This document shows positions 15,256-47,500 of a stretch of 64,000 nt of DNA, in pieces. The notes beneath the pieces are model-generated. The model was not told the origin of the DNA, searched no databases, and saw only the letters and a program-made list of their open reading frames with translations. This DNA is from Styela clava. Its lineage: Eukaryota. The first letter of the stretch is position 1. Each line of letters starts with the position of its first letter. The DNA is taken from the NCBI RefSeq assembly GCF_964204865.1, contig NC_135252.1, positions 3,596,001 to 3,660,000 of the forward strand. The letters are read 5' to 3'. A program made the position numbers and the translations under genes.

Positions 15256-15459
15256 GGTGACCGTACATTTGAACCCACGTACATTTGAACCCATGTCTAT
15301 ATCCGCGGCTTCAATCAATATGCGGGTGCTGAAACCCATGGGTTAGGGTTAGTATGGGTTCAACTATCTGTACAACAACAAAAAATTCCATAGGTGCAAT
15401 AGTATGCAGGTGCAATTGTCATGGGTTCAAATGTACGTGGGTTCAAATGTAATGGAACC
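15256..15459 (-). mobile_element. MITE family A copy
   Basis: 9-bp TSD ACTCTATAT (15247-15255, 15460-15468); reverse complement of 6207-6393 with one extra GTACATTTGAACCCAC unit. Confidence 0.92.
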
Positions 15460-30970: not shown

Positions 30971-31173
30971 GGTTCCATTACATTTGAACCCACGTACATT
31001 TGAACTCATGGCAATTGCACCTGTATGCTATTGCACCTATGAATTTTTTTTTGTTTCACGGATAGTTAAACCCATACTAACCCTAACCCATGGGTTTTAG
31101 CACCCGCATATAGATTGAACCCGTGGATATACGCATGGGTTCAAATGTACATGGGTTCAAATGTACGGTCACC
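30971..31173 (+). mobile_element. MITE family A copy
   Basis: 8-bp TSD GGTTTAAG (30963-30970, 31174-31181). Confidence 0.92.
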
Positions 31174-39006: not shown

Positions 39007-39759
39007 AGTTGCATTAAATGGTGTAACACCAGAGGAATAAAGTAATAACAGCAGCAAGGGGAAATTGATGACAACAGTTTCTCAAGACGGAGAACCGTTC
39101 CCATGTCTAGATTACTGCGAAATTTCTATATCAATAAATGAGTAAATGGACAATTTTGCTTTCTTTTCAGTTCATGCTAAAGTAGCATTTGAGGAACCGT
39201 GATAAATTGAGGCTTAAAGGTCTGTTCGGATTTTTAGTCAAAATGCACATTGCTATATCTGCTTCTTGTTCTTTGGCATAGGAAGCTATGGTAATGAATT
39301 CCAAGATAGAAGTCAGTTCAGTGGAGAGTTCATGATACTCTTAAAGCCGTAGCCAGTGCTTTGTTCGTGTGATATACCGGTACCGGTATATAATTGCGAG
39401 GGATGATTTAGAGTTGAAAATTCATAAGAGTAACTAATCATTTATTGGTGGTGGAAAGAATTGCCAACCGTGCTTTATTGCTTGCCGTTTATAAAAATTA
39501 TAAACTAAGCAATCATGTGTCGCAGTCGTTTGTTACAAACACATTTAATGATCCGGGAGAACGACTCCCGAAGTCCATCAAGATCAGTTGAGATGTTGAC
39601 AGTGGCGAGACATGAGGGCGCGTGCCCGCTGTGCTAAAAGATGATATGCAATCTATTTCGGCATTCTGAAAACTTAATATTTAATGAAACGAACAAATCA
39701 TATAACAGAAATATCTGAACTCGAGAATTCATGAAATTTTTATCGGGCATACAGGTACA

Positions 39760-40095
39760 GGCGCGGCGGTGTGGCTCAACGGGCTAAGCGTTAGGAATAC
39801 GCTCGCCACCGCACCTCTAATTACTCTGCGTGGGTTCGCAGGTTCGAATCCCATGCAGGGATGGTTATGTGCGAGAGGATTGCTGGACTCCTCGCCGTCG
39901 TTGGGTGGTTCACGTAACTGCTGGTCGGTTACGGCTTCCTCCACCACCAAGTCCATGCTCCCGAAAACAAACAATATAACTAACCCCATACCCGACTTGG
40001 AATGGTAACCGGACGAGAGGCCGTGGTTCGCCATATGGATAAGCCGTCTTATCGCCTTTCCTCTCCCCCGGGATAAATATGTAAATCCTAATCCT
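39760..40095 (+). mobile_element. tRNA-derived SINE, full length
   Basis: A box TGGCTCAACGGG, B box GGTTCGAATCCC, short ATCCT(A) tail, 7-bp TSD AGGTACA (39753-39759, 40096-40102); at least 4 copies in the window. Confidence 0.92.
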
Positions 40096-40490
40096 AGGTA
40101 CACCTTCAAAAATGCCAGTCTTTTCCTAAACGAAACGAGAAGAAACCACAAAAACAGCAAAGCGTGTGCGGGACCATGTCACATCGTTTAGGATTTGTGT
40201 ATATATACCTCAGGAACACGCTCGCCACCGCACTTCAGATTACCTACCCTGCGTGATAGTTTCGCAGGTTCGAATTCCCTAGGGCAGGGGTGTGCAACCT
40301 TTGTCACAGGCGGGCCAGATACGAGTATCTGGGTGAAGCCAAAGTGAATATATTTAAAGTCACTTAGGGTGAAGCCGCGGGCCGCACCTAGAAACTCTAC
40401 CCACGAAAGGCGCTGGATACGAAAAATCCAACCAACGAAAATTCTTCTCATAAAAAAATCGCTTTGGCTAACGTCAGATTTCTACATACT

Positions 40491-40885
40491 TTAGGGATAA
40501 ATTCGTTATTTCAGGTAAAATACATTAAAACGACTGGAAATTGCTAATTTCGAATTTCTCCAAATTCACGAATTTGATCGATATAGGGCCCGTTGTAATT
40601 AGACAAACAGATGACAACCAAAAATATAATTGGATCGATGACATATGGTAATTAGTATTCCAAACCCGAATCGATAACCCTAATGGAATCGATATCACCA
40701 TACGCACATACGTATAAATAAGGTTTCAATTGGATATTTGGGAGAGATGTATTAAAAAAGGTCTCGTATTTGGGAGTCAAGTCGTATCAGTGTCGTTTCG
40801 TCATGTCTTCATCGTTTGTTCTCCGTGTATATCTACAACATTAATCTACTTCAACAACGTTCAACGTGTTTTTATTGGCTAAAAT
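40491..40885 (+). repeat. 395-bp direct repeat, copy 1
   Basis: Near-identical (a handful of substitutions) to 42678-43072. Confidence 0.95.
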
Positions 40886-42270
40886 GTCGATCCCGAACAA
40901 AGGATAGCAAGCTTTCTGATGTGGAGTCGAAATCGCTAAAGGTGACCCAACAAAACAACAACAGCACATATCGAAGAAGTAAAATACCGACAACAACACA
41001 AGCGATGGCACTGCTGAGATGAATATTGAAGCATTACAGAACACAATGGTACGGAATCGGAAAAGAATCAGACGATGGATAAAGACCAAGTCCACACAAT
41101 GAACGATATGAACTTCTGTTTGAATTCAAAAATACAAGGTGAAAAATCGTATCAGGCTAAATTAAACTGATGATATAATACAACTATATATAATAATTAT
41201 AATTAATTCGGATCTTAATTTCTATGAATTGCTTGAAAACAGACTTTGAGTGTTTACTCAAATTGCAACTAATCTCATGGCCAATTGATTATACAAGCAA
41301 GGTGAATATTCAATTTCAAAATTCTTGTGATTTATAATAATTAAAAAATGACGGATGTAAACTATTTCAATTAGATAGATTTCATCAACACTGAACTATT
41401 TTTAAAAGATGATTCAAACGAGTCACTCTTTTTAGCGTTTATAACATCGTCATAAGAACGGTGCATAAATGAGCTCATCAATATATTCGTCAAAACGAGT
41501 ATATGAAAAGCGCTATATTTTTTTTTTTTTTTTTCAAAGCCCGAAGCTGGCATTATCAACTTATCGCAACAAGCGAACTTACAAAGCGCTATTTTTTCAA
41601 AAACATGAGCAATCGTATTTCAGTGTGACGAAGTATATTGGATTGAAAGATCAGTTTTATCTGTCGAAATCAAATTTAAAAAACAATAAATCGCCTTTTC
41701 TTTTCTAATCTACACTCTCACTCTCGTCCTACTTCCCTCTTATTCTCAAATCTTCTCGTCTCATATTTTTGAATTTCAGTATGTATATTTTTCAATTGTG
41801 TTTTTTTTTCGTTTTTTCAATGTTTTATAGTGAATTTTTTAGAACGTATAGGCACCATAATTATGTCTCAAAACCCGGAATTCCATTCCAAAAGAAGGGA
41901 GTATTTTATAGGGAAAGATTAGTAATTTGGACGAACATTTTTAAATACATAGAAAAAGGCTGATTATTAGTATTGAAGAAATTCTCCGAATTCATAAATT
42001 AGATCGATAAAAACCCATTTTAAATTTAAATTAGGCAACATATGGCAACGAAAAAATAACTGGATCAATAACGTCCAGGTGGTAATTAGTATTCAAAACC
42101 TCAATCAATAAGGCTAATGGAATCGATAGCATCATTCTAATCCTCGGAATATAGATTTATAGATCAAATCCTAATACTATTCTTTACAATTCTGATTAGG
42201 TTAAAATCCTGGGAGAGACATGATTATTGTTGGTTTGCTGTATATAAGGGTCGCTATCGCTGTAGTATTA

Positions 42271-42330
42271 TCCAGTCTTGTAGGATCCAATCTTGTAAGA
42301 TGTAGTCTTGTAGTATCCAGTCTTGTAAAT
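42271..42330. repeat. 15-bp tandem repeat x4 (T(C/G)(C/T)A(G/A)TCTTGTA...)
   Basis: tccagtcttgtagga/tccaatcttgtaaga/tgtagtcttgtagta/tccagtcttgtaaat. Confidence 0.8.
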
Positions 42331-42677
42331 ACAACCTTGACGTGTATACTGTTCAATAAACTAAAGAAGAATTGTCGCAATTGTCGTTTGTCTGCTATCA
42401 TCTATTGTCTGCTGGGGGCGAGCGCCTACATAACCGAACATCGAGGTGAAGAATAATTCGTGCAAGTTGAAAGACAAGAGCCAGTGCTCCGATTAAAGAG
42501 CTACGAAAGATCTCGTTATATTTAGGAATTCTCAAATCTTCTCGTCCCATATTTTTGAATTTCAGTATGTATATTTTTCAATTGTGTTTTTCGTCATTTT
42601 CAATGTTTTTTAAATTTACGTATAAACGTTAGGTGACAAATATGCTCAAAACTCCGATCCAAACGGCGTAGATATAT

Positions 42678-43072
42678 TTAGGGATAAATTCGTTATTTCA
42701 GGTAAAATACATTAAAACGACTGAATATTGCTAATTTCGAATTTCTCCAAATTCACGAATTTGATCGATATAGGGCCCGTTGTAATTAGACAAACAGATG
42801 ACAACCAAAAATATAATTGGATCGATGACATATGGTAATTAGTATTCTAAACCCGAATCGATAACCCTAATGGAATCGATATCACCATACGCACATACGT
42901 ATAAATAAGGTTTCAATTGGATATTTGGGAGGGATGTATTAAAAAAGGTCTTGTATTTGGGAGTCAAGTCGTATCAGTGTCGTTTCGTCATGTCTTCATT
43001 GTTTGTTTTCCGTGTATATCTACAGCATTAATCTACTTCAACAACGTTCAACGTGTTTTTATTGGCTAAAAT
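42678..43072 (+). repeat. 395-bp direct repeat, copy 2
   Basis: Near-identical to 40491-40885. Confidence 0.95.
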
Positions 43073-44587
43073 ACGAAAGGTCGAAAACTTAAAAAACGCG
43101 TGTAGTGGTATTGGTTCATTTTAGGTTAATTCAATGCAGTGCTTGAAGAAGGGATGTCCAATCTGAATTTAATATTCGAATATCGCGACCTTCGAATATC
43201 GTTTTTTGTGTTTATAGGAATACCGAATATGGCGCACATATCCTAGCGCCACCGTCCACGTTTCGATTTACAACATTTTACAATTATTTTATTTTTTATC
43301 GTAATCGAAGGCAGCCGTGTGCGGCGCGGCAATAAATTGACTGGCATCTCATTGGCCAGTTTGTTTCCCGCGGGTACGTGCAGTGTGTTGCTAGCGAAAT
43401 TCAGTGAGAAGACGAGGATACGACGAAACAATGAAAAAAAAATGAATTTCATATGTGTGTGCTCATTTTCGTACATTACGTTCTCTCTTAGTAGTCAACT
43501 TTTGCCGCAAACTCCGACCGCCGTCCCACTCTCCGCGGTCTTCGTTTTTAGCCCAAAGTGATTATAAGTCACTTTGGTTTAGCCTAGCCTAGTCGGCCAA
43601 CGCCAAAGGTAAACAAACATGCCGCTCGTAGTTTTTATTCGGTATTTCTCTATTCCCTCCATTTATACCTTTTCTATTTATTATGCAGTAATTTAATTAC
43701 GGTTTTAACCATTATCATAATTTATAAAAATGTAATGTCCGAGTTTTGTGGGGGCATAAAACGGACTAGGGAATTTACAGGTAAAAAATGTGTCGCTACT
43801 TACAGAATTTTCTACGTACGAAGAGGGCTCCGAAACTAAATAATTGTGTAGGTTGAGTTTCTACTGTATTTGCAAGCACAAATTTTTAAATTGGCATTTC
43901 TCCGCGGGCCGCACAACTTGTTTTTGCGGGCAGCAGTTTGCACACCCCTGCCCTAGGGGATAATTCTGTGCGAGATGATCGCTGGACTCCTCGCCGCCGC
44001 AGGGTGGTTTACGTAACCACTGGTCGGTTACCGACACGGCTTATGTCATTATGTCCATTCATCTGAACAATTAAATGACTGACCAACTAATATAATATCC
44101 GACATTAACTCGTAACCGGACGAAAGGGCTTGGTTCGCCATATGGTCGTCGTCTTATCTTCTCTTCAACAGGATAAATATTTGAATCCTACCCATATGTT
44201 TTAGTGCCATCGCTCTCCAGTTGTTAACGGCATTTTTTAGTTTTATTCCTGTCAACGAAATGATAAACCTTCCTAACAATGACCGCCACCCAAGATATTC
44301 ATTGTGCCGTTTAACTTCGTTCTAATTGGCGATTATGCTACTTTATAAACTTTCTTTTTTATCCAACCAGTCTTGTATCATCTTAGAACAGTCCTGAATA
44401 CCCTTCTTAAAGCATCAATTCAGATCATACAGATTACATTTCTGATTATAATTAGGATTTAAATGCAGAAAATATTAAGCATTAAGTAAACACTTTACTT
44501 CAATGAATGCCATGCAACAGAAAGAAAGAATCAACATATATCATGATCATGTAACAGTGATTTTCTAATGAAAAAAAGTTAAAATAT

Positions 44588-47500
44588 TCAAGATTCCTCG
44601 CTGGAATACTCGGTGGAATGCCATTCAGCTGTTTGCTCATGAACAACGATATCCGGTTCCCCACCTTCCCCTTCTGCCATAGGTTCGGTCACTGTAAATC
44701 AATAGGTTGAAATGGTATTACACATGACTCCATGAGGCTGCAAGACCCACAATAAGGATTCCGACACGAAAATATGACAATGTGGGATTAAAAAGAGAGA
44801 ATAAACCCTTAATGTGTCGCTAACATTTACTGAATGTACAGAAGGATTAGTATTTACTTGCGGGTCATTCAGTTAGACCATTATTTTGAAACTTTTGAAA
44901 GGGTATTTTTCTTTTGCTAACCGTGATGCACTCCACGAGCATATTATCGCAAGTACCAGTAATTCTTAACTTGGGAATGATTAAATACAACTAGAAACAA
45001 TTCTAACGTTTACACACTGGAGTATTAAAACACAATTATCTTAAACAAAACTGCAACATGATTATAATTACCAAATTGTTTTCAACTCAAACAGTAAACC
45101 TTTACCTTGAGATATTACAGTTGATGCAGGAACCATGACAGGCACAGTTTGCATTTGTGTGAAAGCTGTGAGCATTTGAGGCAATTGAGCAGCATCCATA
45201 TGGAATTGCACTGAAATAATAAACATCCTTGTCAAACTTTTTTCAATTTAAAAAATATCAAACTGGATAGCATTCCCAGAGTCTGAAAATTGAAAAGGAT
45301 TTGCTAACAGCAAGGTCGCCAGACTCAGCACTCACCCAGAAGTAAAGGAGATCTATTTCTGAGCAAAGTTATGGTTAAATATTGAAATATAGAGAGTTGC
45401 TGAAACTATATAAAATTATGGTAGTGCAGTGTTCACCAGTGAATTCGGATTGTTGAGAGACTCGAATCAGATCAAGTCAATAAAATCATGTGGTTCCATT
45501 ACATTTGAACCCACGTACATTTGAACCCATGACAATTGCACCTGTATGCTATTGCACCTATGGAATTTTTTTTTGTTTAACGGATAGTTAAACCCATACT
45601 AACCCTAACCCATGGGTTTTAGCACCCGCATATAGATTGAACCCATGGATATACACATGGGTTCAAATGTACGGTCACCAAATCATGTAAACATCACTGT
45701 ATAGTGCAATATAGCCCTTAATAATCCCAAATTTTCATACTACCAATTAATTACTTTATAATAAACACTCCGCAACAGGAAATGCAGCCACAAACAACAA
45801 TACAAAACAACAACGTCGCATTAGTCGGTACACATCTTTCACAGGCCAAGTCTCACGCCCATTCAAATTTCAAAAAAGGTTCACCAAAACGCTGTATTAT
45901 GTTAAAAATATTGAAACGAAATTCCCTGTTATGAAAAAAACGACTAAAAGGAAACTACAAAAAAATTCTCTTCTGGTGACAGCATGTCCCAAAAGAGCTG
46001 ATGTTAAAATTGCTTTGTTAATTAATGACACTTTTATTTTGAGATGAGTTTTGAAAGGCTAAAGTCTATTGATGACAACACTTTACCTGGCTGAAATGTA
46101 TGCATTCCTGGCAAGGACGATACCGGAGTAGTTGTTGTCTGAAAGGTTGACTCAGAATTGACTGGATCTGATATAATAGGACCAACCTTACGTCTGAAGG
46201 TAGACATAGGTGGGACTGATGCAGATCTTGACATTTGTGTCGTGTTGCTCAACCCTTCTGTAATAAGTTTGAACATGAAAAGGGAATAGAGGTTAAGCAT
46301 TGCAAAAAAATATTCAATCTAATCAAAATTTGATGACTTTCACCATTGCGTTTTAAGACGGTACCAAGAAAAACGTCTTCCTTCTTCAAAAACGTGCCTC
46401 CAATACATGCCAGAATATAAAAATGTCTCTTTTGAGTCAAATGGATAGAGTGTATGGAACCGTTTTATGCCGAGTAAAAGGCCACCAAATCTAATAACAT
46501 ATATGATAAATATGAAAAAAAAAACGGAACACTGGTTAAATCACTGACACTGACAAAATACACACTGTTTTACAATGAGCATAATAAAACCAGAACTTCA
46601 ACATATTTCAAGTGTGCTTTGTATCATTATATGTTATTATTCCCATCATACCTGTTATTGCGACTGAACTGATATTTGTTGTTTCACCAACCATCTAAAA
46701 AAATTGGATTTCATATGAATGCTTGGCAATGCCTTGTATTACACAGAGTTAAAAAAAACGAATCACATCATCATCTGTTAAAAAGTTATGAATCTCATCC
46801 CCAAAGTGCTGTTTGTTGCTTACAGGAAAATTTTCGCAACACTTATTCCATCAAATTTTCAATTTTTTGCTTCTTGGGGAGACATTTAACAATGAATGCG
46901 TATAAACTGTGATAACTTGGACAGCTATTTTTAAATTCATCGCATTAAACATGTCACATTTTGACCAGGCTAAATTATGATATATTATATGAAGAATGCT
47001 TATCATCTCTCTCTTGAAACTTCAAACTGGGCGCGATAGTCTAACGGTATAAGTGATAGACTTAAGTAAAATGGCAACACAGGTGTGAAACACCACAACA
47101 ATAATAAATTGGGTATGTAATTATGAACTGAAAAGACTCCGGTTCTTCCAAACTATGCTGATTACCTTCCTCTTGTGCAGAGTTTTGTTCAGAGTAAAAG
47201 GGCATAAAATATGTCATATTGAAAAAATAAAAGTAGTTATTGGCCAACCTGTTGAGGCAACACACATGTGACCATCATTCCTGAAGGAATATGGCTGACT
47301 CCTCCTATAGTTACTTGTTCACCTATGACTGGGATAGCAGAGTTTGTACTGACATTCAGAGGAACAACAAAAGTGGGTTGACCCTGCATTGCTGGTTGAT
47401 ATGTTGGCAAAACTGTGCCGTGACTGATTTTCGTCAAAGTGGATGCCGGGGGTAACGCCTTTTCTGTATAGTTTGATCCTTCTATTATAGTAGTATATTG

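What the first reader, a model, noticed from the sequence alone, without database searches (positions are those of the whole stretch)
40411..43072. Unclassified 2.66-kb modular cassette with 395-bp direct repeats, nested in a hAT inside a SINE
Seen: the segment is bounded by an 8-bp direct repeat ACGAAAGG (40403-40410, 43073-43080) and has no TIRs. It contains near-identical 395-bp repeats (40491-40885, 42678-43072) that lack TG..CA LTR ends. A second repeated block, ATTCTCAAATCTTCTCGTC..TTCAATGTTTT, occurs at ~41742-41826 and ~42528-42607. There is no long ORF. Inference: a non-autonomous element of an unrecognised type (pseudo-LTR/Penelope-like, Helitron-captured or virus-derived), or a piece of a ~2.19-kb tandem or circular unit. 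High repeat identity implies a recent origin.
Basis: partly seen in the sequence, partly recalled or inferred. Interest (0 to 1): 0.7.

Follow-up and report, generated by a model that had tools for sequence, protein, structure and literature searches.

The report
Three-LTR retrotransposon hybrid with TT–AA ends
This is a gene-less copy of an LTR-type jumping gene, carrying a piece of a sister family's terminal repeat that was likely patched in during reverse transcription; the kind is known, but its ends read TT…AA instead of the usual TG…CA and its primer site is predicted to pair with the tRNA at two separate places.

Summary
The repeats are real, but the boundaries and the reading are wrong. 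The insert is 40490–43070. It has 394-bp LTRs (TTTAG…CTAAA, 8 differences) and a 4-bp TSD, ATAC. The 8-bp 'TSD' and the first 79 bp belong to the host hAT: 19 of 19 host copies read through the empty site. The insert belongs to a dispersed non-autonomous LTR family; 17 of 19 called copies have their own 4-bp TSD. A tRNA-Trp primer site follows the 5′ LTR. The middle module is a second LTR type, B. Elsewhere B bounds a broken gag-pol-env Gypsy element with CsRn1 marks (DUF7041, CHCC gag) and a weak gB-like env. The window copy is a one-off A–I–B–I′–A hybrid: 720 bp of B lies between two copies of a 64-bp A block. Other copies look like frozen reverse-transcription intermediates, so template switching in a shared particle is likely (~55%). 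Two traits are unusual: neither end is CA, and a second block complementary to the tRNA-Trp anticodon arm is kept across the env-bearing lineage. None of the 8 earlier scan notes shown concerned this family.

The parts
40212..40284 (+). Left part of the tRNA-like SINE interrupted by the hAT (includes the hAT's left TSD CCCTAGGG, 40277-40284)
   Evidence: Aligns to the neighbouring SINE 39760-40099 (D10, D16)
40285..40489 (+).
   Evidence: TIR and 8-bp TSD; 19 of 19 host copies span the empty site. 'hAT' rests on the recalled TIR/8-bp TSD pattern; no transposase was tested
40486..40489 (.). Left 4-bp target site duplication ATAC
40490..40883 (+). 5′ LTR, type A, 394 bp, TTTAGGG…GGCTAAA; TATA-like TATAAAT at 40713
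40885..40896 (+). Primer-binding site for tRNA-Trp(CCA), decayed here (TGTCGATCCCGA; TGGTGACCCCGA in several other copies)
   Evidence: tRNA-Trp genes of this genome; leaders compared
40907..40928 (+). Second block complementary to tRNA-Trp (anticodon loop, 3′ anticodon stem, variable loop); predicted second pairing site
   Evidence: 19 of 22 columns match; 0 of 1000 shuffles reach the score
40929..41741 (+). Non-coding internal region of A type, largely shared with B-type copies; about 180 bp also 69-70% alike to family D
41742..41805 (+). First copy of the duplicated 64-bp A-type block, ending in the T-tract where the sequence turns from A type to B type
   Evidence: Diagnostic columns; 63 of 64 identical to the second copy
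41806..41906 (+). B-type pre-LTR segment with purine-rich tract AAAAGAAGGGAG (41890)
   Evidence: last 70 bp 99% identical to the gag-pol-env copy L170
41907..42527 (+). Inner LTR, type B (starts TATAGGG; TATA 42241, AATAAA 42355, 15-bp tandem 42270-42327); lacks the last 13 bp and a 14-bp piece near its end
   Evidence: B bounds the coding copy L170
42528..42676 (+). A-type pre-LTR segment: second copy of the 64-bp block, then the purine-rich tract before the 3′ LTR
   Evidence: junction motif found with family sequence only here
42677..43070 (+). 3′ LTR, type A, 394 bp; 8 differences from the 5′ LTR (7 transitions, 1 transversion)
43071..43074 (.). Right 4-bp target site duplication ATAC
43075..43950 (+). 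Right part of the hAT-like host, ending GTTTGCACACCCCTG; TSD CCCTAGGG at 43951-43958
   Evidence: (I1)
43959..44199 (+). Right part of the interrupted SINE
   Evidence: D4, D6, D9

Best explanation
The insert (40490-43070) is a gene-less LTR retrotransposon with two 394-bp TT…AA-ended LTRs, a 4-bp target duplication and a tRNA-Trp primer site, likely copied and integrated by the enzymes of a CsRn1-like, env-bearing Gypsy lineage of the same genome, and its extra middle LTR was likely gained by template switching in a particle that held two sister families. Shown: ends, TSD, empty host site, primer site, dispersed copies, solo LTRs, a coding copy with the same LTR-B, and the A-to-B and B-to-A junctions. 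Inferred, step by step: (1) Pol II transcription starts about 30 nt after the TATA box of LTR-A. (2) The RNA is packaged in trans. (3) tRNA-Trp anneals by its last ~12 nt and, predicted, also by its anticodon and variable arm to a second block 10 nt downstream. (4) During plus-strand synthesis the growing strand left the A template at the shared T-tract (~41800) and copied the pre-LTR segment and LTR of a co-packaged B minus-strand DNA to 13 nt from its end. It then rejoined the A template 64 nt back, which duplicated that block. (5) An integrase that accepts AA-3′ at both ends inserted the product. Odds: the element class about 95%; particle-level origin of the hybrid about 55%; function of the second tRNA block about 55%.
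For: TSD: 17 of 19 auto-called elements have a 4-bp TSD directly against the ends, and 0 of 19 a 5-bp one. The end motifs were part of the search, so the TSD is the independent test. One miss (L022) is a mis-called end and shows AAGT on both sides. Empty site. Primer: the LTR-end+PBS pattern has 26 matches against 1 in the reversed control; tRNA-Trp genes. Partner: L170 is B-LTR, gag, pol, env, B-LTR, 7545 bp, TSD GTTG, with DUF7041 gag, CX2HX9CX3C, RT/RNase H and a weak gB match. Its RT is 87% identical to family G3 and groups with G3 and G2 (SH-aLRT 98, quick tree). Trp PBS, 4-bp TSD, CHCC and right ends AAA/ATA are the published CsRn1 marks (PMC2582038 section 6). Shared particles: L064 is a whole B LTR plus PBS, joined to an A LTR exactly 30 nt after its TATA start, then A internal and A LTR, under one TSD ACCT. 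That is the shape of B plus-strand strong-stop DNA joined to an A RNA 5′ end, and one integration used a B end and an A end. L068 is LTR-A, 41 nt of tRNA-Trp complement, purine tract, LTR-A, which looks like RT reading far into the primer. Both 64-bp blocks in the window are A type and nearly identical. Second tRNA block: visible in all 16 distinct full A leaders listed (read by eye). The duplex test gives p≤0.04 in A, B, C, D, E, G2, G3 and L170, but not in the TG…CA families G1 and G5.
Against: No coding element with A LTRs and no intact one with B LTRs was found; L170 has interrupted gag and pol frames and a deleted 5′ LTR end. Genome searches score only the 40 best candidates. No B copy closer than 91% to the 721-bp patch turned up, nor an A LTR closer than 92%, so the donors are unseen. 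One homologous plus one non-homologous junction is also what DNA-break repair leaves. One element (L009) has no matching TSD. The second tRNA block may be an inherited relic: the alignment-score test misses for G2 (p 0.25) and G3 (p 0.052), and the duplex test is also weakly positive for G4 (0.030) and L078 (0.027), which lie outside the clade. The gB matches (27-33 bits) are below Pfam's 43-bit cut-off. The transcription start is inferred from the TATA box only.
Confidence: 0.85

Rival explanations
1. Same element, but the B patch came after integration. A break or stalled fork in a plain A-I-A copy invaded a genomic B copy at the shared T-tract, copied 720 bp and was rejoined 64 nt back by end joining.
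For: One homologous and one non-homologous junction, plus a 14-bp deletion between GT dinucleotides near the second junction. It needs no co-packaging. The junction is unique in the assembly.
Against: No B donor above 91% identity, though a patch younger than the 2% LTR divergence should have one. The duplicated block differs at 1 of 64 sites, about as much as the LTRs, which fits one event (weak). L064 shows that A/B hybrids arose before integration.
Confidence: 0.3
2. The hybrid arose during minus-strand synthesis from a read-through B RNA, or a B element inserted into an A element and later recombined.
For: Tandem copies exist (A-I-A-I-A in L065, TSD ACTA), so RNAs with an inner LTR can exist. 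RT template switching between RNAs is established.
Against: A true insertion would keep B's CCTAAA end and a 4-bp TSD; the window's B lacks both. Recopying a 64-nt stretch of RNA already degraded by RNase H is disfavoured (recalled).
Confidence: 0.15
3. One reading: a non-LTR cassette of a new type, with an 8-bp TSD (Penelope-like, Helitron-captured), or a slice of a tandem or circular unit.
For: No TG…CA ends and no long ORF.
Against: The 8-mer is host sequence; 4-bp TSDs, PBS, solo LTRs and a gag-pol-env copy; no Rfam match in 39500-44500 at E≤1.
Confidence: 0.02
4. The three-LTR arrangement is an assembly error.
For: No contig bridges the B-to-I′ junction with 31 letters on both sides, and runs X2 and X4 show no listed piece across it.
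Against: The LTRs differ at 8 sites. Three overlapping contigs of run X1 (42487-42538, 42509-42549, 42520-42562) tile the junction without a difference, though X1 may be the assembly's source. Contigs of X1, X2 and X5 run from 28-30 bp inside the 3′ LTR into this host copy.
Confidence: 0.04

Closest known systems
CsRn1 clade of Ty3/Gypsy (CsRn1, PwRn1, AgCR; PMC2582038, passages and section 6 seen; PMC3601003, passages with Table 3 seen)
   Same: tRNA-Trp PBS, 4-bp TSD, CX2HX9CX3C gag motif in the coding relatives, right end AAA or ATA; GGCTAAA fits 6 of 7 positions of the published 3′ motif MSYYAMA.
   Different: Published left ends are TGT (TGTGGYG); here TTTAG or TATAG. The PwRn1 paper found no env; the relatives here have a gB-like third ORF. 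The window copy codes for nothing.
gB-type env-carrying Ty3/gypsy elements of ascidians (PMC13524379; passages and 9 ascidian rows of supplementary file 1 seen)
   Same: gag-pol-env order, HSV/gB-type env; 1 of the 9 ascidian rows has a Trp(CCA) PBS.
   Different: The passages seen give nothing on LTR end dinucleotides, TSDs, extended primer pairing or non-autonomous derivatives. No sequence comparison with those entries was made.
TRIMs and tandemly arrayed TRIMs, L3I2 (PMC4717578, passages; PMC10886601, parts 1-3 of 6)
   Same: Non-coding LTR-PBS-PPT-LTR elements moved in trans; three-LTR arrays under one TSD; animal Helenus TRIMs also make 4-bp TSDs.
   Different: About 2.0-2.5 kb, above the <1000 bp TRIM limit; the middle LTR comes from another family; the tRNA-like sequence is antisense and follows the LTR, not inside it as in Helenus.
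Ty1/Ty3 bipartite primer-binding sites (PMC5371799, passages)
   Same: Two tRNA-complementary segments; in Ty1 they are separated by a small loop, as predicted here.
   Different: Here the second segment matches the anticodon and variable arm of tRNA-Trp; Ty3 pairs the acceptor, TΨC and D arms of tRNAi-Met. Pairing is untested here.
Non-canonical LTR ends in plants (10.1101/137141, passages; its supplementary motif table could not be opened)
   Same: First base T kept; TA…TA, as in families D, E and L078 here, is listed.
   Different: TT…AA and TA…AA are not among the motifs named in the passages seen.

Membership tests
LTR retrotransposon (non-autonomous) | Long direct terminal repeats with short inverted ends | tested here: met
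   394-bp pair, TTTAG/CTAAA
LTR retrotransposon (non-autonomous) | Fixed 4-6 bp TSD and an empty site | tested here: met
   ATAC; 17 of 19 copies with a 4-bp TSD; 19 of 19 empty host sites
LTR retrotransposon (non-autonomous) | tRNA PBS after the 5′ LTR | tested here: met
   decayed in the window copy (10 of 18 match)
LTR retrotransposon (non-autonomous) | Polypurine tract before the 3′ LTR | tested here: inconclusive
   Clear for B (AAAAGAAGGGAG, 5 nt before the LTR); short and interrupted for A
LTR retrotransposon (non-autonomous) | Canonical TG…CA ends | tested here: not met
   TT…AA (A) and TA…AA (B), fixed by the TSDs. Exceptions are published, so this does not exclude the class
CsRn1 clade | tRNA-Trp PBS and 4-bp TSD | tested here: met
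   definition
CsRn1 clade | CHCC gag signature CX2HX9CX3C | tested here: met
   Present in the B-LTR coding copy and in G1, G2, G3, L078; the window copy has no gag
CsRn1 clade | Left end TGT, right end AAA/ATA/ACA | tested here: not met
   Right end met; left end TTT or TAT
CsRn1 clade | RT groups with named CsRn1, PwRn1 or Kabuki | not tested
   No named reference was in hand. The tree held 7 elements of this genome and 40 of the 120 listed homologues. Filed as CsRn1-like, not as a proven member
TRIM | Length under 1000 bp | tested here: not met
   Two-LTR non-coding copies mostly 1.6-3.3 kb; only L068 is TRIM-sized
Helenus (tRNA-derived LTR) | tRNA-like sequence with boxes A and B inside the LTR | tested here: not met
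   No Rfam match at E≤1 over 39500-44500; the tRNA-like block is antisense and outside the LTR
Penelope-like, DIRS/Ngaro or Helitron cargo | No fixed integrase-type TSD and no tRNA PBS (recalled) | tested here: not met
   Fixed 4-bp TSD and PBS present

The most novel reading that the evidence does not exclude
An env-bearing Gypsy lineage of this animal has dropped the CA rule at both DNA ends (TG…TA, TA…TA, TA…AA and TT…AA within one clade). It primes with a two-point or near-whole-molecule grip on tRNA-Trp that includes the anticodon arm. Its reverse transcriptase renews that grip by reading far past the usual stop in the primer: there are fresh 41-50-nt tRNA copies in L068 and L085, and a decayed near-full-length complement in family E. 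Its gene-less satellites share particles across families and leave hybrid cDNAs as a fossil record of the process.
Probability: 0.35. Interest if true: 0.6.

Novelty: new variant of a known kind. Interest (0 to 1): 0.37.

Why it matters
The class is known, so the locus itself is modest. Three points would interest a transposon specialist. First, TT…AA and TA…AA ends would be missed by searches that demand TG…CA, and they show an integrase lineage working without CA at either end. Second, the conserved second tRNA block gives a natural case for testing extended primer pairing outside yeast. Third, hybrids such as L064 and L068 preserve reverse-transcription intermediates and point to co-packaging of different families. 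The case also shows how a repeat native to the host element can pass for a TSD.

Tried and rejected
Rfam scan for ribozymes or tRNA-like parts: 0 matches at E≤1. ORFs: none above 94 aa inside the insert; tblastx of the window copy and two family copies against nine coding or related elements gave nothing. Eight new LTR-end+PBS sites gave one more A copy, two copies of family C and no Gypsy gag-pol. The junction pattern had 3 matches; the 2 outside the window hold no family sequence. Helenus/Ajax were considered because of the tRNA-like block and rejected. Expression: no RNA holder was listed with certainty; X5 is only guessed to be RNA, so it is no evidence either way. The raw-read run X16 was too thin at the junction (2 reads laid). 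The careful tree did not finish; the quick one is reported. My 'env' label for G5 was not scanned, and G4 and G5 sit on long branches. Literature: searches for TT..AA / TA..AA ends (the one LTR paper's hits were TGTT..AACA), for extended PBS with read-through, for bipartite PBS in Gypsy, for CsRn1 with env in ascidians and for non-canonical ends in tunicates found no description of these two traits. The library lacks most subscription papers and Repbase was not available, so this does not show absence. The strand displacement-assimilation model and the m1A58 stop are recalled; two searches gave no passage on them.

Full report
Observation. The two long repeats, the second repeated block and the lack of a long ORF are real. 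The nesting is also real: a hAT-like element (40285-43950, TSD CCCTAGGG) splits a tRNA-like SINE. The boundaries are not as given. I removed the insert in silico at ATAC and aligned the result to 19 other host copies (the best 19 besides the window's own, of 62 matches). All 19 run through ...CTACATAC|GAAAGG with one ATAC, and 16 of 19 carry ACGAAAGG at least twice within one mismatch. The 8-mer and 40411-40489 are therefore host sequence. The insert is 40490-43070 with TSD ATAC.

A dispersed LTR family. The cassette has 80 matches in the genome, a lower bound since 40 of 202 candidates were scored. The usual copy is LTR-internal-LTR of about 2 kb. Two LTR types occur: A (TTTAGGG…GGCTAAA, ~400 bp) and B (TATAGGG…TCCTAAA, ~630 bp), about 72% alike over part of their length. 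Of 19 automatically called elements, 17 have a 4-bp TSD hard against these ends, and none has a 5-bp one; six are solo A LTRs. The two misses are a mis-called end (L022; AAGT on both sides) and L009. The window's LTRs differ at 8 of 394 sites (K2P 0.021). Other A and B pairs are about 95-98% alike, while several related families have 99-100% pairs. A and B are thus recent but not the youngest.

Primer. After the 5′ LTR comes TGGTGACCCCGA or a variant, the complement of the 3′ end of this genome's tRNA-Trp(CCA). Ten bases on, a second block matches the complement of tRNA positions ~29-49 (19 of 22 columns in the window copy; 0 of 1000 shuffles as good). Seventeen leaders were tested. By duplex energy the block is significant (p≤0.04) in all A, B, C, D, E, G2, G3 and B-coding leaders, weakly also in G4 and L078, and not in G1 or G5. 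By alignment score G2, G3, G1, G5 and L078 miss p 0.05. The spacer between the two blocks differs from family to family while the block persists, which suggests selection; inheritance of a relic is not excluded. L068 holds 41 nt and L085 50 nt of near-perfect tRNA complement, so RT appears at times to copy far beyond 18 nt.

Partner. Searches from the PBS and from an integrase-bearing ORF found several Gypsy families: G1 and G5 end TG…CA, G2 and G4 TG…TA, and L078 TA…TA; G3 copies start TATAG or TGTAG and end CCTATA. One copy, L170 (C13), is bounded by B LTRs with TSD GTTG and holds gag, pol and env homology, with interrupted gag and pol frames. Pfam gives DUF7041, RT, RNase H and a below-threshold glycoprotein B match, and the CHCC motif is present. 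In a quick tree of 47 RT regions, L170, G3 and G2 group together (SH-aLRT 98). Trp PBS, 4-bp TSD, CHCC and right ends AAA/ATA are the published CsRn1 marks (PMC2582038, section 6), and gB-type env Gypsy elements are reported from ascidians (PMC13524379). That the host is a sea squirt comes from earlier scan notes and was not tested. No coding copy with A LTRs was found.

The hybrid. The window copy reads A, internal, B, 149 bp, A. Diagnostic columns show A-type sequence up to the T-tract near 41800, B-type from there to 42527, then A-type again, starting 64 nt back. The B part stops 13 nt short of its end and lacks 14 nt nearby. The junction is unique in the assembly and is tiled without differences by three overlapping contigs of run X1, which may be the source sample. 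Other hybrids exist. L064 has a B left end and an A right end under one TSD, and its A piece begins 30 nt after the TATA start. L063 has an inverted B part inside an A copy, and L065 is A-I-A-I-A. L064 is hard to explain after integration, so A and B genomes likely met before it. I therefore favour a switch during plus-strand synthesis onto a co-packaged B minus-strand DNA (~55%) over DNA repair after integration (~30%) and read-through RNA or nested insertion (~15%).

Comparison and novelty. It works like a TRIM or tandem-array TRIM (PMC4717578, passages) but is too long for the name and has a foreign middle LTR. It is CsRn1-like but fails the TGT left end, and its placement against named references was not tested. 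I found no description of TT…AA or TA…AA ends, or of an anticodon-arm second block in Gypsy elements. That search is limited, Repbase was not available, and the LTR_retriever supplementary table could not be opened. Verdict: a new variant of a known kind; interest 0.37.

Noticed in passing
L079 (G000:C1:22487390-22492036); L081, L085, L086, L089, L090: Family D, non-autonomous, ends TATAGCA…TGCTATA, 4-bp TSDs, LTR pairs 97-100% identical. L079's only stop-free frame over 90 aa is a 444-aa gB-like env piece: an env-only satellite element.
   Followed up: partly
L184, L185 (family E); L053, L054 (family C): Further non-autonomous families. E (TATAGGG…TCCTATA, LTRs 100% identical) has a decayed complement of almost the whole tRNA-Trp after the LTR.
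   Followed up: partly
window 41303-41476 and ~41620-41790: Internal blocks shared at about 70% between A/B and families D and E; candidates for packaging or dimerisation signals.
   Followed up: no
L144, L195: Solo-like A LTRs followed by 8 nt of PBS and then a repeat of the LTR's last ~22 nt before the TSD; another likely RT slip.
   Followed up: no
G000:C10:6856924-6939346: Tandem array with 63 of the 74 tRNA-Trp pattern matches, interleaved with tRNA-Cys genes in the part scanned.
   Followed up: no
G000:C2:25.1-26.1 Mb: Near-identical copies of the host hAT recur every ~100-140 kb, suggesting a large segmental array.
   Followed up: no
L099-L100 (G000:C17:~3.998-4.011 Mb): A G2 element whose LTR is fused to ~700 bp of extra sequence and repeated in tandem as 1428-bp units.
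   Followed up: no
L188 (C173), L175 (C14:21.30 Mb): A-like LTRs next to env remnants and a B-like LTR; possibly further A/B hybrids of coding origin.
   Followed up: partly
window 45485-45686, 15262-15293, 31134-31166: Small inverted-repeat element built from a 16-bp unit (CGTACATTTGAACCCA) at three places in the window.
   Followed up: no
window 39760-40099: A second, apparently complete copy of the tRNA-like SINE just upstream of the interrupted one; Rfam gave no match.
   Followed up: partly
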